Shown piece by piece: positions 7,301 to 40,439 of a DNA stretch of 64,000 bases. A model generated the notes under the pieces. It searched no databases. It was not told the origin of the DNA and was given only the letters and a program-made list of their open reading frames with translations. This DNA is from Prorocentrum cordatum. Its lineage: Eukaryota. Location of the stretch: NCBI GenBank assembly GCA_963575745.1, contig CAUYUJ010000114.1, positions 1,364,001 to 1,428,000 on the forward strand, given 5' to 3'. Numbering within the stretch: the first letter of the stretch is position 1; each line of letters begins with the position of its first letter. The position numbers were made by a program, and so were the translations under genes.

Positions 7301-10300
7301 GGTCCTAGTCGGGCGTTGGCGGGACTGGGTTTTAGTGGGACCTGGTTTAATGATGTGTACAAGGGACGCCCTCCACGCCGCAGTCCCCTGACCAGAACTG
7401 CCGTCGCCCGAAGAAACATCAACTGCGGCAGACTTTGTTTGGTGCTTCTGGTCATTTGCCTGGGCTTCGGGGCCCAACCACTAACCGGCTCCCCTTTCCC
7501 GTGATCCTGGCTATATCCGACCTAGCCCCGCCCCATGTTCTGTACTCCGGATCCTTCAATCAGCCCCCCCCCCCCGGGCCAACCTGTCCGACGCCCTTGT
7601 CCGCCCCCCCACGCGCCCCAAACCTACCCCCTCTCGCTCCCCAACCTCCCCACGCCCCCCGAAGGACAGCAGTCTCCCACCCCCCCTCGCGATCCTTCCC
7701 CCCACGCTCATTGAGAGACCTGGAGTGCCCGTCCGTGCAGGCAGCGCTCTCGAGCGATCCGCTGATCCGGATGCTTTTCAGCTCTTTCTGCCCTCTGGTG
7801 TTCGGGCGCAGGGGGGCGCCACAAGGAGGGGGGCGCCACCAGCCTCGTGCAGGTCCGATGCCTTGGCATGCACAGGTCAGGAGGCAACTGCTGGGAGGTG
7901 TTCGTCGGAAAGATTAGGGAGGATCCGGCCCCATTTGGGAGCTGTTACGCCGGAGTGGGCCTCGGGCCAAGCAAGACTAAGCTGGCATTCCGCGGGATTG
8001 GGCTGGATTTAGGACCAGGGCGAGAACAGAACTCGACCTCCCAGGAGTTGCATCCGAGCGCAGGCGCCGGCCGCCGCCGAACTAGAGACCACAGCAGAAC
8101 CTAGCAGCAAAAGGGTGGAGGGCTCCTCCGCTCCCGCCGGACGGGGTCGATCGGCGGCGGGCCTTGGGGGGGGAAGGTGGGGAGGGGGCGGGCCTGCTCC
8201 CGGCCATCGCTCGGACGTCCCTTCCCTGCGTTTTTTCTGAAGGCTCAGAAGGCCCCCGACCTTCTGAGACCTTTTCGAAGCCTTCCCGAAGGCACAGAAC
8301 ACCTCTCAGAATGCCGGAGCGCTTCTGATAAGCCCCGCCGCCTTCCGAGATGGCCTTCTCCTTCTAACCTCCCCCCCTCGCTCGCCGCCGAATCGAGGGC
8401 CCAAGCCAACACGCATGTCGTCTGCAGGTCAACCGCTTTCCGACCGCATTCGCTCGCTGGGGCTTCTCAAGCCGCAGCTCGTTTTTTGGCCTGGCAGGCC
8501 CTGTCGACCTCTTCTCCTCAGACCGAGAGCGCAAGAGAGAGGAGGGGAAGGGGGAGGGGAAGGAATAGGGGCCGGCCTCAGATGTCGACGACGTTCTTGC
8601 AGGCGCTGCTCACGGTGGTCGCATCCTCGTGATCGTCCTCCCCTAGGAGCCCTCCCACGAGGTAGCCCGCGTGACGCAAGTTGCGGACGAAGAAATTCAA
8701 GTATGCTATGCCTGTATTTGTGCGACCGTGCACCACTTTCAACATCACTTTCCCGAAAGATATCCACTTCGTGCCAGTGTGGACTTTCCCGGAGCCCGCG
8801 CTGAAGGAGAGTCCGCCGCCAGCCATCCCGAGCGCGTGGACTTTGGACTCTACCCATTTTCCCGTTATGTTGATGCTCATGAAGTACGTATCCGCGCAAG
8901 TATCACCCCCTATCCTCTGGGCGTCAGCCTCCACTAGGAGAACCACTTGCGATGGACGCGCCTTGAAGGGCACATGAAGAAGGACATGGACGCCAGGTTT
9001 CATCAAGTCGAAATGCTGCCCGTGCAGATTTACAAGATGCGGGTCGCCAGTCGCACTCATCGTAGTCGGCGAGGCCGTCGGCGCAACAGTAACGAAAGTC
9101 GGTGCCGGGGTCAGGGCGGCCGTCGGTGCAGCTGTGGAACCCGCCGTCGGTGCTGCTGTTGGCGAGGTCGTCGCTGACGGGGTCGGGGAGGCCGTCGGTG
9201 TTGCTGTTGGCGAAGCAGTCGGCGCAATCGTGAAGAAAATTCCGGAATTCCCGTTTTGATCAGTCGGCGGGGCTGTCGGTATGGGAGCCGCCGTCGGTGC
9301 TGCCGTCGGCGAGGCCGTCGGCGTGGTCGTCGGTGATGGGGTCAGGGAGGTCGTCGGCACAGCTGTAGGAGCCGCCGTCGCTGCTGCTGTTGGCGAAGCC
9401 GTCGGCGCAATCGTGAAGAAAGTTCCGGAATTCCCGTTTTGATCAGTCGGCGGGGCTGTCGGTGTGGGAGCCGCCGTCGGTGCTTCCGTCGGCGAGGCCG
9501 TCGGCGAGGTCGTCGGTGATGGGGTCAGGGAGGCCGTCGGCGCAGCTGTAGGAGTCGCCGTCGCTGCTGCTGTTGGCGAAGCCGTCGGTGCAGGGGTCGA
9601 GGACGCCGTAGGCGCAGCTGTAGGAGCCGCCGTCGGTTCAGCCGTCGGCGAGGTCGTCGGTGACGGGGTCGAGGAGGCCGTCGGTGCAGCCGTGGGACCC
9701 GCCGTCGGTGCTGCTGTTGGCGAGGCCGTCAGTGACGGGGTCGGGGAGGCTGTCGGTGCAGCTGTTGGCGAGGCCGTCGGTGCTGCTGTTGGCAAGGCGG
9801 TCGGTGACGGGGTCGAGAAGGCCGTCGGCGCAGCTGTGGGAACCGCCGTCGCTGCTGCTGTTGGCGAAGCCGTCGGCGCAATCGTGAAGAAAGTTCCGGA
9901 ATTCCCGTTTTGATCAGTCGGCGGGGCTGTCGGTATGGGAGCCGCCGTCGGTGCTGCCGTCGGCGAGGCTGTCGGCGAGGTCGTCGGAGACGGGGTCAGA
10001 GATGTCGTAGGCGCAGCTGTAGGAGCCGCCGTCGGTGCAGCCGTCGGCGAGGTCGTCGGTGACGGGGTCAGGGAGGCCGTCGGTGCTGCTGTGGGACCCG
10101 CCGTCGGTGCTGCTGTTGGCGAGGTCGTCGTTGCTGCTGTTGGCGAGGTCGTCGGTGACGGGGTCGAGGAGGCCGTCGGCGCAGCTGTAGGAGCCGCCGT
10201 CGGTGCTGCTGTTGGCGAAGCCGTCGGTGCTGCTGTTGATGAGCTCGTCGGGGACGGGGACGGGGAGGCCGTCGGCAAAGCTGTGGGAGCCGCCGTCGGT

Positions 10301-12332
10301 GCTGCTGTTGGCGAGGCCGTCGGGGAGGCCGTCGGCGCAGCTGTAGGAGCCGCCGTCGGTGCTGCTGTTGGCGAAGCCGTCGGTGCTGCTGTTGGCGAGC
10401 TCGTCGGGGACGGGGACGGGGAGGCCGTCGGCACAGCTGTGGGAGCCGCCGTCGGTGTTGCTGTGGGCGAGGCCGTCGGGGACGCCGTCGGCGCAGCTGT
10501 GGGAGCCGCCGTCGGTGCTGCTGTTGGCAAGGCCGTCGGGAAAGGCGTCGGCGAAGGCGTTCGAATACTGTCGAAGTATTCCTGAGCACACGTGAAGCTC
10601 CCCGCCTCAGCGAAGAAATTCGACGTCCCGCCCAAGCCGAAATTACGGCCCCAAAGATGAACGTGATCATCGGAGTATGCATTGAGGATCCTGAATCCGA
10701 TTTCGAACGAACTGACATTGTCGAACTCGGCCATGAAACACCGCTTCGCTTGGTCAACAGGGACGGCCGTCTCGTCTGGACAAGTGATGTTGATTAAATC
10801 ATTCGGGCCGGTTGGATTGTCGCAGCCGTGACCGAACATCCGCGAAGTGGACATGATCCCAAACTTGCCACCGGGGTAGGTGTACCTGCGGGACATCCTG
10901 CCTGGAACGGATGATTGGATCGATTCGGAGACCACGCCAGTCAGTTGCTGGGGGCTGTCCCCCACGGAAGTTCCATACTGAAAGAAACTTAGGTCGAAAT
11001 CGATGTCGCCGTCGATCGTGTAGACCGCCCTGACGCCGTCTAGCAATATTATTTCGTTCTCGCCGTCTATGAAATGGTCAATATCGCAGAAAGTTAGTTT
11101 TGGAGAATTTGGGAACTCGGGGCAGAAAGAATGGTTTCTCACGAACTCTGCCCGGAGAGTAACCCGCTCACCAACAAGGAGGTTCACAAGCGCCTGTTCC
11201 CCAGAAACGCCGTTCCAATTCGTGTTCCGGGGAGTATAGACGCTTGTGTTGGTGTAGACTAAATCATATATGACTCCATTTGGAAGTTTACCAACTCCGT
11301 AATATCGCATCTCCTTGGGCTTAGTATAATCTGGACCCAATCCGCCAAGATTTGAGTGAGCTTGATGACCAAAAAACTGAACCCAATCCTCACAGCCTGC
11401 TGGGTGAGTAACATATTCTACAGCAGGGCACTCCTCGGGACACACGCAGCACATTGAAGAGCTGAAGTCATCGTCGTCATAATACGGATCCAAGCATATA
11501 CTGATATATGGGGCATCAGGGTCGTAGCTATAGACAGCGCAAGAATTGCCAAATCTATTCGTAGCTCCATTGTCTGCGTCTACACATGTGGTCGGTGCTG
11601 ACGTTGGTGCTCCTGTTGGTGCAGACGACACAGCCAGTGACCCCTTACGCTGTGAACTGTTCACCGTGATGTCACCAGGCATTTTTTGATCGGTATCCAT
11701 CTGAACCTCGTACAACAACTCGCCCTGCAGCAGGAACATATCCAAACACCCACCGCTTTCACACGCCTGCGAACGTGTGTCTTGGGACATACTGCTACCC
11801 GCGACATGCGCAGTCGTGGAATTCACAAACCATGACACGAAGGCCACCGCCATCCACCTTGCACGGCACAGTACCACGCAATCGTATGAAGGCCAGCACT
11901 TCATATCAGAAATGATGGATGGCAAATAGAGAAGTAAGTGTGATAATGGTAAAAGCTAATAGAAATAAGGAAGTTTTGTGTAAGTGCATAGAATTGGAGC
12001 CATAAGGCCTACGGATCAGGCCTAAGTCGATGAGAGAGGAGAAGAAAGTTATCGGTCGCTCTACCTCGACTGTGAGGTCGCACCACCGGCAACACCGTCG
12101 ATCAGAAGCAAAGGCTTGATCAACCACAGCTCGATCTCAGGTGGCCGACTCCAGGAACCCGTGCGTCGACCCGTCCTCGGGGATCCCCCTCGGCTTCAAA
12201 GATGGATGGGGCACCGAGACATGAGAGCCTGGGGCCAGGAGGCCTCGACCTGGAAGCCGCTTCCTGTCCGCAGGGCCCCATCCAGGGAAACCACAAGATA
12301 CCAATACCGCTTCTCCCTTGACCTCTCCTGGG
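3683..12332 (+). CDS. Candidate multi-exon gene of unknown product; putative exons 3683-3810, 6223-6341, 7036-7171, 7876-7984, 12239-12332
   Basis: Each non-repetitive island starts after AG|G and ends at a GC/GT/GA donor. Phases join into one open frame (GLPCVSQ...AAR/SPGG...SAG/GISLELGR...FQYGSR/SGGNCWEV...KTKL/EASTWKP...DLSW). No family recognised; donors were chosen by eye. Confidence 0.35.
4769..4970. mobile_element. Palindromic MITE family A
   Basis: Long imperfect inverted arms (cataaa..ggcgctccgcgcggatttctcggatccgcgctgg / ccagcgcggatccgaaaaatccgcgcggagcgcc..tttatg); TA at both ends; five copies in the window. Confidence 0.8.
5313..5517. mobile_element. MITE family B
   Basis: aggggccctgggacaYacaaat...gtgtgt..ttcctcc. 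Further copies at ~12630, ~12996, ~13340, ~14478, ~22549, ~27078 (reversed), ~34707 and ~39646. Confidence 0.8.
5611..5806. mobile_element. MITE family G
   Basis: Termini tcggg..cgaaagggggg / cccccctttcg..cccga. Copies at ~24986-25193 and 29926-30120. Confidence 0.8.
5816..6021. mobile_element. Palindromic MITE family A
   Basis: Same inverted arms as 4769-4970. Confidence 0.8.
8578..11904 (-). CDS. Intronless secreted/surface mucin-like protein (1108 aa): hydrophobic N-terminus, Cys-rich module, globular domain, long PT (PTAA/PTAS) repeat stalk, C-terminal GDPH (VWD-like) domain
   Basis: Uninterrupted ORF from ATG 11904 to TGA 8580-8578 with complex non-repetitive domains: CVDADNGAT...YDDDDFSSSMCCVC, HSNLGGLGPD...TFCDID, ATGDPHLVNLHGQHFDL...GGLLGEDDH. 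Confidence 0.9.
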   Translation of the reverse strand: MKCWPSYDCVVLCRARWMAVAFVSWFVNSTTAHVAGSSMSQDTRSQACESGGCLDMFLLQGELLYEVQMDTDQKMPGDITVNSSQRKGSLAVSSAPTGAPTSAPTTCVDADNGATNRFGNSCAVYSYDPDAPYISICLDPYYDDDDFSSSMCCVCPEECPAVEYVTHPAGCEDWVQFFGHQAHSNLGGLGPDYTKPKEMRYYGVGKLPNGVIYDLVYTNTSVYTPRNTNWNGVSGEQALVNLLVGERVTLRAEFVRNHSFCPEFPNSPKLTFCDIDHFIDGENEIILLDGVRAVYTIDGDIDFDLSFFQYGTSVGDSPQQLTGVVSESIQSSVPGRMSRRYTYPGGKFGIMSTSRMFGHGCDNPTGPNDLINITCPDETAVPVDQAKRCFMAEFDNVSSFEIGFRILNAYSDDHVHLWGRNFGLGGTSNFFAEAGSFTCAQEYFDSIRTPSPTPFPTALPTAAPTAAPTAAPTASPTASPTATPTAAPTAVPTASPSPSPTSSPTAAPTASPTAAPTAAPTAAPTASPTASPTAAPTAAPTALPTASPSPSPTSSSTAAPTASPTAAPTAAPTAAPTASSTPSPTTSPTAATTTSPTAAPTAGPTAAPTASLTPSPTTSPTAAPTAAPTAAPTTSLTPSPTTSPTASPTAAPTAAPIPTAPPTDQNGNSGTFFTIAPTASPTAAATAVPTAAPTAFSTPSPTALPTAAPTASPTAAPTASPTPSLTASPTAAPTAGPTAAPTASSTPSPTTSPTAEPTAAPTAAPTASSTPAPTASPTAAATATPTAAPTASLTPSPTTSPTASPTEAPTAAPTPTAPPTDQNGNSGTFFTIAPTASPTAAATAAPTAVPTTSLTPSPTTTPTASPTAAPTAAPIPTAPPTDQNGNSGIFFTIAPTASPTATPTASPTPSATTSPTAAPTAGSTAAPTAALTPAPTFVTVAPTASPTTMSATGDPHLVNLHGQHFDLMKPGVHVLLHVPFKARPSQVVLLVEADAQRIGGDTCADTYFMSINITGKWVESKVHALGMAGGGLSFSAGSGKVHTGTKWISFGKVMLKVVHGRTNTGIAYLNFFVRNLRHAGYLVGGLLGEDDHEDATTVSSACKNVVDI
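11994..12015 (-). other. Degenerate relic dinoflagellate spliced leader
   Basis: TCCGTAGGCCTTATGGCTCCAA versus TCCGTAGCCATTTTGGCTCAAG: 17/22 identical, ungapped, same strand, 89 nt upstream of the ATG. Confidence 0.75.
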
Positions 12333-38576: not shown

Positions 38577-40183
38577 TTAGCAGCCCCTGCCCGGCTTCCG
38601 ACTGAGGCGGAGCCAGGAGTCGAGGCCGGCATCGGGCGAGGGCGGATCGCGAAGCTCGGAGAGCGGGCGGCTCTGGAGGACGTCTCGCGCGCCGCGGCCT
38701 GCTCCGGGGCGCCCTGAGAGCCTTCGTGGGCGCTCGACGGATGCCCGGAACGGATGCGTCCTTCGCAGACGGGGGGAAAACGGGCCCTGGGCTCTCGGGC
38801 CTTCCCCACAGGGCGACCTCCACTGCAGGAGCCGCTCCCTCACGCTCCCGAGGCTCGCGGAGGGCCCCGGGAGCCCGAACAAACGGCGACAAACCTCGGG
38901 ACCCGTTTCCCTCGGGTCGGCCGTTGCCAGAACTGGGTTTAGTGGGACCTGGTTCAGAGATGAGTACTCGGGGACGCCCCCCCCGCCCCGTTCCACGAAC
39001 CGGAACTGCCGCCACCCGGTTTAGTGATTCTTGGCAGTTCCGGGGCTCCACGGCCCTATCACTAAGCGGGTCCCCTTAGTTCTGGCTCTACCCGATCGGT
39101 ACCCTCGGCGGTGGACAAACCTCCCTTTAGTAGACCTCCCCTGAGTGAAAAAGGCCTGGGACCGAAACCGACGGACCTGGACCCGCAAAAATGACGGCCG
39201 CGACGCCCTCTCGCGAACCGACAAGTTTGGACGCCCGAAATGGGCACGGAAAGAATGGGTACAATGCCCAACAACAAATGTTGTCCCCATCCAACAGCGG
39301 CCGCTGTTGGGCAGGCGGCCTCCTGTCTCAAACGGACACAGGCCGCGGCGGCGCGGACAGCGAGTCCTGTTCAAAATGAACTGGAACTGCTGTTGGGCAT
39401 TGTACCCATTCTTTCCGTACCCATTTCGTTCTAATCGACGTGTCAGGGTAGGAGGTCTATCCACCCCCGATGCCCGATTCCCCCACGGCGACTGGCCCAG
39501 TCCGGCAGCCTGCGCTGGCGCAAGAACGCGTGCCGCCGGCGCGCGGGGGGGCCCTGCCGGAAGCGCACGCCCAGCACCCCGCCACTCCAAGGCTCCAGCA
39601 GCGAGGGGAACTCCCGGAGCAGTGCCTGCGCGCCCCGCGCCTCCGAAGGGGGCCCAGGGGGCACACACAAATGAGTAGACGCAGCTCCCATGATGCCCTG
39701 TATATTTTCGGTGTTTCCTGGGTTTTCGTCTCGCCCTCCACTTCCCGAGTGGCTTCCATATTTTCCCGCGATCGACGATGAGTTGTGCCTGTGTGCTTCT
39801 CCCCTCCTGCACCTCTTGCACCCGCCGCTCCGCGGCCGACATCCTGGCCTGGAGCCCCCCGCGGTTCGTCTTGCAACGTGTCTTGGCACAGGGCTCGAGC
39901 TGAACAGTGTTTTCAGGTTTTGTGCTGCTTTCGTTTTCCCTCGTTTCGTGTTCTCTCGTTCTCTATTTTCTTTGTGTGTGTGTGTGTTTTTGTGCCTCTG
40001 CTGCAGAACGGCATCAACACGAAAGCGGTCCACGAGGTCGCCCAACCACCGCTTAGCTCGGGCCCCGTCTTGGCACAGTAGCCGCGGTAGCGCAGCACGG
40101 CCCCGTCGAGCTGGAAGAAGCGGACGGTGCGCTCGACGTCCTCGTGGCCGTCGCCGTGCCGCAGCAGCAGCTCCTCCCTGTGC
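38577..40183 (-). CDS. 3' part of a putative TET/JBP-associated (TAGT/GREB1/JGT-like) glycosyltransferase; exons 40183-40069, 39881-39807, 39625-39553 and, less certainly, 38698-38577
   Basis: Spliced peptide RHREELLLRHGDGHEDVERTVRFFQLDGAVLRYRGYCAK/TRCKTNRGGLQARMSAAERRVQEVQ/ALLREFPSLLEPWSGGVLGVRFRQG/RGARDVLQ...; GC3-rich codons; consistent phases. The EDxERT..DG.V.R...KT...GG.Q...LL..FP motif series was recognised from memory, not by search. Confidence 0.65.
39646..39807. mobile_element. MITE family B copy forming most of a 181-nt intron
   Basis: aagggggcccagggggcacacacaaatg...gtgtgcttctcccctcc; the right end coincides with the CAG|GA donor. Confidence 0.75.
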
Positions 40184-40339
40184 CTGCCCGCAGGGGGGAC
40201 GCTCAGCGGGTCCTCCACCCCGGGGCCCTCGCCCCAGGGATGAGCTCTTCCTCCAGAGCCGCCTGCGGACAGCCCCAGGGGTCCGTGGAGGGCCCCGAGA
40301 GCCCGAGAACGGCGAAAAGCCTCTGGACCCGTCTCCCTC

Positions 40340-40439
40340 NNNNNNNNNNNNNNNNNNNNNNNNNNNNNNNNNNNNNNNNNNNNNNNNNNNNNNNNNNNNN
40401 NNNNNNNNNNNNNNNNNNNNNNNNNNNNNNNNNNNNNNN
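40340..40439. other. Assembly gap (100 N)
   Basis: Run of exactly 100 N. Confidence 1.

What the first reader, a model, noticed from the sequence alone, without database searches (positions are those of the whole stretch)
38577..40183. Intron-containing gene resembling TET/JBP-associated glycosyltransferases in a 5hmU-containing lineage
Seen: three to four short exons, not joined in the ORF track, splice into HEDVERTVRFFQLDGAVLRYRGYCAKTRCKTNRGGLQ...LLREFP...GVRF. Established: TAGT/GREB1-like GT-A enzymes include the kinetoplastid base-J glucosyltransferase, which glucosylates 5hmU in DNA. Inference: the motif spacing matches the C-terminal half of that family, which would hint at a glycosylated hmU base in dinoflagellates. 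The N-terminal half with the DxD motif is missing, probably at the gap, so family and substrate are unproven.
Basis: partly seen in the sequence, partly recalled or inferred. Interest (0 to 1): 0.8.

Follow-up and report, generated by a model that had tools for sequence, protein, structure and literature searches.

The report
DNA-glycosyltransferase-like gene in a dinoflagellate
This is the back part of an expressed dinoflagellate gene from the enzyme family that attaches sugars to modified DNA bases in phages and trypanosomes, so the abundant hydroxymethyluracil of dinoflagellate DNA may carry sugars too.

Summary
On the minus strand, three short exons (40186-40067, 39879-39813, 39640-39510) are joined in RNA-library contigs with no mismatches. 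A fourth exon is RNA-supported (38508-38359), and two more are predicted, ending at a stop at 36784-36782.

The organism is Prorocentrum cordatum.

The family assignment also holds, but only through relatives. The raw frames hit no Pfam family. Exhaustive phmmer found a dinoflagellate protein family. Its full-length members pass Pfam TAGT (PF20691) and match phage DNA-glucosyltransferase PHROGs. The closest relative models as a GT-A fold. The spliced product keeps 32 of 32 conserved family columns within its range.

Exon A aligns directly (E 2e-8) to a viral TAGT that lies beside a Tet_JBP dioxygenase gene.

The N-terminal half with the DxD motif is absent from the window. The RNA contigs run about 600 nt further upstream, so it probably lies in the assembly gap.

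A DNA substrate (glycosyl-hmU or glycosyl-hmC) is plausible but unproven, since GREB1 shows the family can glycosylate protein.

This scan earlier noted a TET+TAGT pair in a giant virus, not in a dinoflagellate.

The parts
40340..40439 (.). Assembly gap of 100 N, directly upstream of the gene part. It is the likely location of the missing N-terminal exons.
   Evidence: No N-terminal homology was found anywhere in the window.
40067..40186 (-). Exon A. It encodes R-H-R-E-E-L-L-L-R-H-G-D-G-H-E-D-V-E-R...R-Y-R-G-Y-C-A-K-T, and corresponds to P0031 residues 242-281 and roughly the last 40 positions of the Pfam TAGT profile. The acceptor is CAG|G.
   Evidence: Profile E 7.1e-25. RNA contigs X1 record 7 and X4 record 15 cover 40067-40186 with 0 mismatches. 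GC3 is 0.97. BLASTP against the viral TAGT of L009 gave E 2e-8.
39880..40066 (-). Intron A/B, 187 nt, non-canonical. A 12-nt direct repeat (CTGTGCCAAGAC) sits at both borders, so the cut can lie anywhere within it. No placement of the cut gives GY..AG. The intron ends form a terminal stem of about 20 bp, which makes it introner-like.
   Evidence: Joint 39879>40067 skips 187 with 'both 12', in X1 and X4.
39813..39879 (-). Exon B, encoding R-C-K-T-N-R-G-G-L-Q-A-R-M-S-A-A-E-R-R-V-Q-E.
   Evidence: Profile E 1e-08. It is bridged on both sides by RNA contigs. The deposited gene model skips it.
39641..39812 (-). Intron B/C, 172 nt, GT..AG.
   Evidence: Joint 39639>39812, 'CT..AC (cut +1)' on the + strand, in X1, X4 and X8.
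39510..39640 (-). Exon C, encoding A-R-G-A-Q-A-L-L-R-E-F-P-S-L-L-E...G-V-R-F-R-Q-G... It marks the end of the GT-A domain.
   Evidence: Profile E 3.7e-06. RNA contigs X1 record 7, X7 record 16 and X8 record 29 cover it. GC3 is 0.93.
38509..39509 (-). Intron C/D, 1001 nt, GC..AG. It holds a high-copy palindromic repeat at about 39108-39459.
   Evidence: Joint 38506>39508 skips 1001, in X1 and X7. Depth over the repeat is 31-950 in all 4 runs. Inverted repeat I2 is reported.
38359..38508 (-). Exon D, the linker and the start of the C-terminal domain (...E-F-R-A-L-V-S-A-G-E-A-A-R-L-D-G-V-R-W...).
   Evidence: RNA contigs X7 record 16 and X1 record 1 cover 38356-38506. GC3 is 1.00. It aligns to P0031 residues 359-385.
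37412..37493 (-). Exon E (predicted), part of the C-terminal domain (...C-D-G-T-V-R-H-S...). The donor is GC and the acceptor is AG|G.
   Evidence: It is present in the deposited model P0030. No RNA was laid on it here.
36782..37024 (-). Exon F (predicted), the end of the C-terminal domain and a basic tail (S-G-W-L-V-P-P-S-K-R-S-R). The stop codon is at 36784-36782.
   Evidence: tblastn with P0031 residues 411-480 gave E 2.5e-06. P0015 gave E 0.001. No RNA was laid on it here.

Best explanation
The locus is the 3' part of an expressed nuclear gene of Prorocentrum cordatum: six exons and 263 codons on the minus strand, from 40186 to 36782. The gene encodes a TET/JBP-associated glycosyltransferase (TAGT, Pfam PF20691) of the GT-A fold.

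What the window encodes:
- Exons A-C encode the last third of the catalytic domain. This includes the invariant G-D-G-x-E-D-V-E-R, R-x-R, G-G-L-Q and F-P motifs.
- Exons D-F encode a small C-terminal domain specific to the dinoflagellate family, plus a basic tail.
- The N-terminal two thirds, with the nucleotide-sugar and metal site (DxD), lie upstream of exon A in the transcript but not in the assembled window. They most likely fall in the 100-N gap.

Proposed mechanism (inferred, not shown): like phage TAGTs and the kinetoplastid base-J glucosyltransferase, the enzyme takes a UDP-sugar at the DxD/Mn2+ site and transfers the sugar to the hydroxymethyl group of 5hmU (or 5hmC) already in nuclear DNA. 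That base is made by the dinoflagellate TET/JBP oxygenases. The result would be a base-J-like glycosylated base on a fraction of the very abundant hmU.

My odds: family membership about 0.9; DNA as the acceptor about 0.45-0.5.
For: Shown:
- Exons and splicing rest on profile E-values, RNA-contig joints with 0 mismatches, and an open frame with GC3 of 0.87-1.00 across six exons.
- Species: the deposited P. cordatum protein CAK0788792.1 is 100% identical over exon A.
- Exhaustive phmmer with the exon A frame gave 26 hits at E<=1e-3.
- Pfam on 24 of those hits: TAGT above cut-off in 7, below cut-off in 2, no family in 13 (many of them short fragments), and 2 unrelated.
- The closest full-length relative, P0031 (85% identical over exon A), scores TAGT 35.9 against a cut-off of 27.5.
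- PHROG phrog_25200 matched 6 of 6 relatives. phrog_842, 'beta-glucosyl-HMC-alpha-glucosyltransferase', matched 4 of 6.
- The AF2 model of P0031 has pLDDT above 90 over most of residues 80-340. Foldseek gave 286 PDB matches at E<=1e-3, and all those listed are GT-A enzymes. VIA gave Z 15.3, rmsd 3.0 and 188 aligned residues to POMGnT1, over model range 69-340.
- The window product keeps 15 of 15 invariant and 17 of 17 near-invariant columns of the 22-member alignment that fall within its range.
- Nine viral loci encode relatives at 24-33% identity. Among 66 ORFs scanned from 8 of these loci, TAGT passed cut-off in 6 loci. A Tet_JBP gene lies 27 nt downstream of the TAGT in L009 and 2.9 kb away in L010.
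- Exon A aligns to the L009 TAGT with 18 of 30 identities, E 2e-8.
- Members of the family carry labels of several dinoflagellates: Ansanella granifera, Dinoflagellata sp. MGD and Symbiodinium natans.

Established knowledge (passages read):
- 5hmU replaces 12-68% of T in dinoflagellates and is made by a TET/JBP enzyme (PMC11572971).
- PF20691 includes the T2/T6 enzyme that glucosylates glucosyl-hmC DNA (PMC13216743).
Against: - The window's own stop-free frames hit no Pfam family at E<=10, so membership rests on relatives.
- The catalytic N-terminal half, including DxD, is not in the window. I could not read the upstream 600-650 nt of the RNA contigs, so the claim that they encode it is an inference.
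- No Tet_JBP domain was found in 114 long ORFs of the window. This is a weak test in an intron-rich genome.
- GREB1, a relative of the same GT family, O-GlcNAcylates a protein rather than DNA (PMC7968844, passages read).
- No chemical evidence for glycosyl-hmU in dinoflagellates turned up. Marinov et al. 2024 (PMC11071213, passage read) state that dinoflagellates have not evolved the elaboration needed for base J.
- Exons E and F are predicted only. Relative to P0031, the product lacks about 11 residues of the C-terminal domain.
Confidence: 0.5

Rival explanations
1. The gene and family are as above (TAGT-type GT-A glycosyltransferase, expressed), but the acceptor is not DNA. The enzyme would glycosylate a protein, as GREB1 O-GlcNAcylates ER-alpha, or some other cellular acceptor. 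The family's link to hmU would then be historical only.
For: [quoted passage not shown]
- No Tet_JBP gene was seen in the window.
- Relatives carry varied extra modules: UBA/CUE in P0029, FYVE in P0007, and ketoacyl synthase in P0016 and P0042. These do not point to DNA.
- No report of glycosylated bases in dinoflagellates was found.
Against: - The dinoflagellate proteins lack GREB1's architecture. They are 350-740 aa long, and Pfam reports no Zn-binding or helicase-like domain in them.
- Their strongest profile matches are phage and giant-virus proteins, including the hmC-DNA glucosyltransferase PHROG and viral TAGTs beside Tet_JBP genes.
- The lineage has more hydroxymethylpyrimidine in its DNA than any other eukaryote (PMC11572971).
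Confidence: 0.35
2. The window copy is a truncated or disrupted relic. It would have lost its 5' half, and exon A/B would be broken by a 175-nt transposon with a 12-nt target duplication. The matching RNA contigs would then come from an intact allele, paralogue or retrocopy elsewhere.
For: - No N-terminal exons are in the window.
- The A/B insert has terminal inverted repeats plus a 12-nt direct repeat, and no GY..AG sites. That fits an unspliceable insertion.
- Read through, exon A runs into a stop after about 50 codons.
- Contigs cannot show which locus was transcribed.
Against: - RNA contigs match the exons with 0 mismatches over 120+68+132 nt and over 151+136 nt.
- X8 record 29 keeps 133 nt of this locus's upstream intron while lacking the A/B and B/C introns. 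This ties a processed RNA to a locus with this flank.
- All six exons stay in frame, with GC3 of 0.87-1.00 and 32 of 32 conserved columns kept.
- A 100-N gap sits 150 nt upstream of exon A.
- Introner-type introns with inverted and direct repeats are reported as enriched in P. cordatum (PMC10666404), and are spliced without canonical sites in Amoebophrya (PMC7789003).
Confidence: 0.1
3. The frames are chance open frames in GC-rich, repeat-rich DNA and there is no gene.
For: - The window has long stop-free frames in all six phases.
- The raw frames have no Pfam hit.
Against: - Profile E-values reach 7e-25.
- RNA contigs show spliced joins.
- 32 of 32 conserved columns are kept.
Confidence: 0.01

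Closest known systems
Phage and giant-virus TET-associated glycosyltransferases (Pfam PF20691 TAGT), including the T2/T6 beta-glucosyl-HMC-alpha-glucosyltransferase
   Same: - They share the Pfam family and PHROG matches.
- They share the GT-A fold. Here that rests; for T6 TAGT it is stated in PMC13216743.
- They share the ...E-D-[VI]-E-R-[TS]-[VL]-R... motif that was used to find the viral loci.
- P0031 is 30% identical to the L009 protein over 245 aa, E 4e-27.
   Different: - The dinoflagellate proteins are nuclear, intron-rich genes, not viral ones.
- They add a conserved C-terminal domain of about 90 aa and a basic tail that the 258-301 aa viral proteins lack.
- No dioxygenase gene was seen beside this one.
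- The T2/T6 enzyme's acceptor is a sugar already on hmC. The acceptor here is unknown.
Kinetoplastid base-J glucosyltransferase (JGT)
   Same: - By published accounts it belongs to the same TAGT-related GT group (PMC7968844 passage citing Iyer et al. 2013; Bullard et al. 2014 seen only as a reference).
- It is a eukaryote whose DNA holds TET/JBP-made hmU.
- The proposed reaction, a sugar placed onto the hmU hydroxymethyl group, is the same.
   Different: - I had no JGT sequence to compare, so orthology is untested.
- hmU is about 0.02-0.12% of nucleotides in T. brucei, against 12-68% of T in dinoflagellates (PMC11572971).
- No base J has been reported in dinoflagellates.
Animal GREB1 / GREB1L C-terminal glycosyltransferase domain
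   Same: It is a related GT-A catalytic domain in a eukaryotic nuclear-encoded protein (PMC7968844).
   Different: - GREB1 is 1949 aa, with an N-terminal Zn-binding domain and an inactive helicase domain, and it O-GlcNAcylates a protein.
- The dinoflagellate proteins are 350-740 aa, and Pfam reports no such domains in them.

Membership tests
TAGT (Pfam PF20691) | Match to the Pfam TAGT profile above the gathering score (27.5 bits) | tested here: inconclusive
   - The window's three stop-free frames gave 0 families at E<=10. Only about 40 of the 205 profile positions are encoded here, so they cannot reach the score alone.
- Relatives found with the window's frame do pass: 7 of 24 (32.3-44.6 bits), P0031 at 35.9 and P0035 at 34.8.
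- Exon A aligns directly to the Pfam-positive viral TAGT of L009, E 2e-8.
TAGT (Pfam PF20691) | GT-A (Rossmann-like, GT2-like) fold | tested here: met
   This was tested on the closest full-length relative, P0031, not on the window product itself.
- AF2 pLDDT is above 90 over most of residues 80-340.
- Foldseek gave 286 PDB hits at E<=1e-3, and the top-listed hits are all GT-A enzymes.
- VIA gave Z 13-15.3 over model residues 69-340.
- The window's exons A-C correspond to model residues 242-335.
TAGT (Pfam PF20691) | DxD metal and nucleotide-sugar motif in the N-terminal half | not testable with these tools
   - The exons that would carry it are not in the window, and the RNA contig sequence upstream of exon A is not shown by the tool.
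- In alignment A1, 18 of the 19 members that cover the site have D-D-D, and one (P0015) has G-D-D.
TAGT (Pfam PF20691) | Conserved C-terminal catalytic-domain motifs (G-D-G-x-E-D-V-E-R, R-x-R, G-G-L-Q, F-P) with family spacing | tested here: met
   All 15 invariant and all 17 near-invariant (>=90%) columns of the 22-member alignment that fall in the encoded range are kept, with no indel between them.
TAGT (Pfam PF20691) | Association with a TET/JBP dioxygenase (neighbour gene or same organism) | tested here: inconclusive
   - No Tet_JBP was found in 114 long ORFs of the window. Short exons would be missed.
- Dinoflagellates do have TET/JBP enzymes that make 5hmU (PMC11572971, passages).
- Tet_JBP lies within the 5 kb of flank fetched in 2 of the 6 viral loci whose scanned ORF passed Pfam TAGT.
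TAGT (Pfam PF20691) | Sugar transfer to hydroxymethylpyrimidine (or its sugar) in DNA | not testable with these tools
   This needs an enzyme assay and nucleoside mass spectrometry.
Kinetoplastid JGT (orthologue) | Closer to JGT than to other TAGT branches | not tested
GREB1 / GREB1L | Large multidomain architecture (Zn-binding N-terminus, permuted inactive helicase, C-terminal GT) | tested here: not met
   - Relatives are 350-740 aa, and TAGT is the only shared Pfam domain.
- The window gene ends 263 codons after the start of exon A.

The most novel reading that the evidence does not exclude
Dinoflagellates do not stop at 5hmU. A conserved, expressed TAGT-family enzyme would convert part of their 5hmU (or 5hmC) into a glycosylated, base-J-like base that enzymatic-digest LC-MS could detect. 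The enzyme was possibly acquired from giant viruses, whose TAGT genes sit beside TET/JBP genes. That would add a second layer to the hmU mark implicated in transposon silencing and domain boundaries.
Probability: 0.35. Interest if true: 0.9.

Novelty: new member of a known kind. Interest (0 to 1): 0.7.

Why it matters
Dinoflagellate DNA holds more 5hmU than any other eukaryote, and what that base does is a long-standing question. The writer enzyme (TET/JBP) was identified only in 2024 (PMC11572971). A 2024 mapping paper states that dinoflagellates have not evolved the further step to base J (PMC11071213).

An expressed gene family of the base-J/phage DNA-glycosyltransferase type, carrying labels from several dinoflagellate lineages, makes the opposite idea directly testable with a mass-spectrometry run and one recombinant enzyme.

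In the held library I found no paper that mentions such a gene in dinoflagellates. The founding paper of the family (Iyer et al. 2013) is not held, so I could not check it.

The locus also shows why the family is easy to miss:
- The deposited gene model is a 1746-aa chimera that skips an exon.
- The 5' half falls in an assembly gap.

Tried and rejected
- Direct Pfam and PDB-sequence searches with the raw frames found nothing useful.
- A whole-genome search was not possible, because no genome is held for this window.
- I looked for the N-terminal half in the window with tblastn using 14 relatives and P0031, and with a family HMM over all six-frame pieces. Nothing scored below E about 0.7. One 15-residue look-alike (63267-63223, E 1.5-1.7) stands alone and I take it as chance.
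- I tried to fetch the gene's own transcript from JGI metagenome contigs. An exact 42-mer gave 0 hits. A peptide scan gave L001, a 739-aa long-form relative at 65% identity, and L002, a false positive: a bacterial luciferase-like oxidoreductase that shares F-F-Q-L-D-G-A-V-L-R.
- A profile of the family against PDB sequences gave no meaningful hit.
- The C-terminal domain was modelled alone, with pLDDT 84. Foldseek gave no match at E<=1e-3. VIA-wide gave a best Z of 6.0 (a TraI translocation-signal domain), plus scattered Tudor, KOW and PWWP-type barrels at Z 3.5-4. No fold is assigned.
- The ESM Atlas gave no usable hit for that domain.
- By eye, the N-terminus of P0038 looked like a 2OG dioxygenase. 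BLASTP against the L009 Tet_JBP protein gave E 2.9, and Pfam found none. The idea is not supported.
- The A/B insert has no other copy in the window.
- RNA depth is not used as a measure of expression, because the runs are contigs.
- Parts without cover are not interpreted.
Full report
**What is in the sequence**

The window is GC-rich eukaryotic DNA with a 100-N gap at 40340-40439. Long open frames are common in all six phases here, so openness alone means nothing.

A sliding codon-position scan did show a sharp coding signature at 40230-40066. There GC3 is 0.96-1.00 while GC2 is 0.32-0.48. Weaker signatures appear over the other two pieces and at 38520-38356.

**Homology**

Pfam on the raw frames gave nothing at E<=10, and PDB sequences gave nothing useful. 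An exhaustive phmmer search with the frame holding exon A (P0003) found 26 proteins at E<=1e-3. Nearly all aligned to the same 40-55 residues at 53-76% identity.

Pfam on 24 of these hits gave the following:
- PF20691 'TET-Associated Glycosyltransferase' above its cut-off in 7.
- The same family below cut-off in 2.
- No family in 13, many of them short fragments.
- Two unrelated repeat proteins.

tblastn of 14 relatives against the window placed three exons. A profile built from 24 hits, run over every six-frame piece of the window, made exactly three significant matches. They lie at consecutive profile positions:

| Window coordinates | E-value | Profile positions |
|---|---|---|
| 40185-40063 | 7.1e-25 | 121-161 |
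| 39890-39810 | 1e-08 | 157-183 |
| 39643-39491 | 3.7e-06 | 182-233 |

Nothing matched profile positions 1-120.

**RNA evidence and gene model**

Thirteen public runs were listed for 38400-40339. Ten of them hold part of the stretch, two of those on record as RNA, and the RNA or probable-RNA runs hold about 0.11-0.15 of its words. I laid four runs on 37700-40339. Contigs join the exons with no mismatches:
- X1 record 7 (994 nt) covers 40186-40067, then 68 nt of exon B, then 39639-39508, and then jumps to 38506.
- X4 record 15 (a polyA RNA library) covers exon A with 601 nt more upstream.
- X7 record 16 joins 39643-39508 to 38506-38356.

The introns on the minus strand are as follows:

| Intron | Coordinates | Length | Splice sites | Support |
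|---|---|---|---|---|
| A/B | 40066-39880 | 187 nt | non-canonical | RNA joint |
| B/C | 39812-39641 | 172 nt | GT..AG | RNA joint |
| C/D | 39509-38509 | 1001 nt | GC..AG | RNA joint |
| D/E | 38358-37494 | 865 nt | GC..AG | predicted |
| E/F | 37411-37025 | 387 nt | GC..AG | predicted |

The two predicted introns come from the deposited model and homology. Joined by coordinates in a script, the six exons give an open frame of 263 codons ending at a stop at 36784-36782. GC3 is 0.87-1.00 in every exon.

The rest of the interval is intron.

**Species and the deposited model**

A word-indexed search found a deposited protein that is 100% identical over exon A: CAK0788792.1, 'unnamed protein product [Prorocentrum cordatum]', 1746 aa. 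Mapped back, it runs across the window from 54263 to at least 16400 on the minus strand (its last ~230 residues were not placed). It fuses a glutathione-peroxidase fragment, a long unassigned stretch, the TAGT part and a cyclophilin. It skips exon B, joining ...C-A-K-T-G-P directly to A-L-L-R-E-F-P. I read it as a merged prediction.

**Family membership**

- The closest full-length relative, P0031 (508 aa, from a 1635-nt JGI contig), is 85% identical over exon A. It aligns with the window product from residue 242 to 480, with 114 of 262 columns identical.
- P0031 passes Pfam TAGT at 35.9 bits against a cut-off of 27.5, over residues 79-289.
- Six relatives all match phrog_25200 (best E 7e-24). 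Four of the six match phrog_842, 'beta-glucosyl-HMC-alpha-glucosyltransferase'.
- An AF2 model of P0031 built from a 22-sequence alignment is confident over residues 80-340.
- Foldseek gave 286 PDB matches at E<=1e-3. Those listed are all GT-A enzymes, such as RmlT, TarS, GnT-I, POMGnT1, ppGalNAc-T and LH3.
- VIA gave Z 15.3 (rmsd 3.0, 188 aligned) to POMGnT1, and Z 13-15 to many others, over model residues 69-340.
- In the 22-member alignment, 19 columns are invariant and 26 are conserved at 90% or more. Of these, 15 and 17 fall in the part the window encodes, and the window product keeps all 32, with family spacing.

This argues for a gene under purifying selection rather than a decayed fragment.

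**Context from relatives**

Family members carry labels of Ansanella granifera, Dinoflagellata sp. MGD, an MMETSP transcript and Symbiodinium natans.

A scan of IMG/VR with the family alignment found nine viral loci that encode relatives at 24-33% identity. I ran Pfam on 66 of the 75 ORFs of 110 aa or more from eight of these loci. I dropped nine L007 ORFs because that locus mirrors L006, and I did not scan L008 because it mirrors L005. The results were:
- TAGT passed its cut-off in six loci.
- An NCLDV major capsid gene lies about 300 nt from the TAGT in L005.
- A D5-type primase lies in L003.
- A Tet_JBP dioxygenase lies 27 nt downstream of the TAGT in L009 and 2.9 kb away in L010.

The window's exon A peptide aligns directly to the L009 TAGT with 18 of 30 identities, E 2e-8. 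P0031 aligns to it over 245 residues, E 4e-27.

In the window itself, 114 long ORFs showed no Tet_JBP domain. Short exons would escape that test.

**The missing half**

No piece of the window resembles the first ~240 residues of P0031, or profile positions 1-120. Two RNA contigs extend 601 and 647 nt upstream of exon A, into sequence that is not in 40187-40339. That length fits an N-terminal half of about 180-240 residues. The tool does not show those letters, so it is an inference that they encode the DxD half. The gap 150 nt upstream of exon A is the obvious place for the missing exons.

**Function**

- Shown: this is an expressed gene of the TAGT family with all checkable conserved residues.
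- Inferred: the enzyme uses a nucleotide sugar at a DxD/metal site and glycosylates hydroxymethylpyrimidine in DNA.

For the DNA inference:
- The family's characterised or context-defined members act on DNA (T2/T6 enzyme, PMC13216743; viral TAGT beside Tet_JBP; JGT, recalled and cited in PMC7968844).
- Dinoflagellates replace 12-68% of T with TET/JBP-made 5hmU, and also hold 5hmC (PMC11572971, passages).

Against it:
- GREB1, a related GT, modifies a protein (PMC7968844).
- Some relatives carry UBA, FYVE or ketosynthase modules.
- No glycosylated base has been reported. Marinov et al. state that dinoflagellates lack the elaboration to base J (PMC11071213, passage).

By analogy with GT2 enzymes, the invariant E-D in exon A may hold the catalytic base. 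This rests on recall and was not tested.

The C-terminal domain gave no convincing fold match.

**Literature**

Searches for dinoflagellate with glucosyltransferase, 5hmU, base J, JGT or TAGT returned no paper describing such a gene in dinoflagellates. I read passages of PMC11572971, its preprint, PMC11071213, PMC12584245, PMC4738411, PMC7968844, PMC13216743, PMC10666404 and PMC7789003. The others I saw only as listings. Iyer et al. 2013, which defined the family, is not held, so prior mention there cannot be excluded.

**Verdict**

This is a new member of a known enzyme family in a lineage where its presence makes a long-standing question testable.

Noticed in passing
window 39880-40078 (minus strand): Intron A/B (187 nt) is flanked by a 12-nt direct repeat, and its ends pair into a stem of about 20 bp (MFE -65.9 kcal/mol, z -1.9). 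No placement of the cut gives GY..AG; the best options are AC..AG or GA..AA. Even so, RNA contigs of two runs lack it exactly, and a third contig (depth 2.7) differs by one extra T at the joint. This looks like the introner type reported as enriched in P. cordatum introns and spliced non-canonically in Amoebophrya. An allele without the insert is not excluded.
   Followed up: partly
window 16400-54263 (minus strand): The deposited gene model CAK0788792.1 (1746 aa) merges a GSHPx fragment, about 1000 residues of unassigned ORF, the TAGT 3' part (without exon B) and a cyclophilin. It is probably a chimera of several genes in one unidirectional array.
   Followed up: partly
window 39108-39459: A palindromic element (arms 39236-39329 and 39335-39428, 71% complementary) sits inside intron C/D. 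It has very high contig depth (about 31-950) and many variants in all four runs laid. Many contigs replace its core (about 39222-39430) with 14-20 other letters. It appears to be a high-copy MITE-like repeat family.
   Followed up: no
window 40252-40339 and 38844-38910: Two copies (about 80% alike, 1428 nt apart) of another repeat show high contig depth (43-326). One copy abuts the assembly gap, which may be why the assembly broke there.
   Followed up: no
window 37106-37300 and 37548-37690: Predicted exon E (37412-37493) sits between a (GGA)n-rich tract and a (CCT)n-rich tract. These form long imperfect inverted repeats (for example 95-nt arms, 71% complementary).
   Followed up: no
L001 and proteins P0032, P0034, P0037, P0022, P0007: Long-form relatives (about 700-960 aa) share a further conserved C-terminal Cys/His-rich module, (R-I-W-x-G-G-W-G-x-Q-C-T ... 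C-x-x-H ... Q-G-Y-L-T-H-G-R ... P-P-K-K-x-x-E-F). It has no Pfam match.
   Followed up: no
proteins P0016 and P0042 (Symbiodinium natans 'ppsA'): A TAGT domain is fused N-terminally to a ketoacyl-synthase domain in two records. This may be a real fusion or merged neighbouring genes.
   Followed up: no
L009 4995-6757; L010 4980-10158; L005 3180-5819: Viral contigs carry a TAGT beside a Tet_JBP dioxygenase in L009 and L010; L010 also carries a deoxynucleoside kinase. In L005 the TAGT lies beside an NCLDV major capsid gene. These are candidate DNA hypermodification cassettes in giant viruses.
   Followed up: partly
window 8581-11955 (minus strand): A 1125-codon open frame whose only Pfam match is the PT disordered repeat. 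The opposite strand reads as glycine-zipper repeats. This looks like a long low-complexity repeat tract rather than an identified gene.
   Followed up: no
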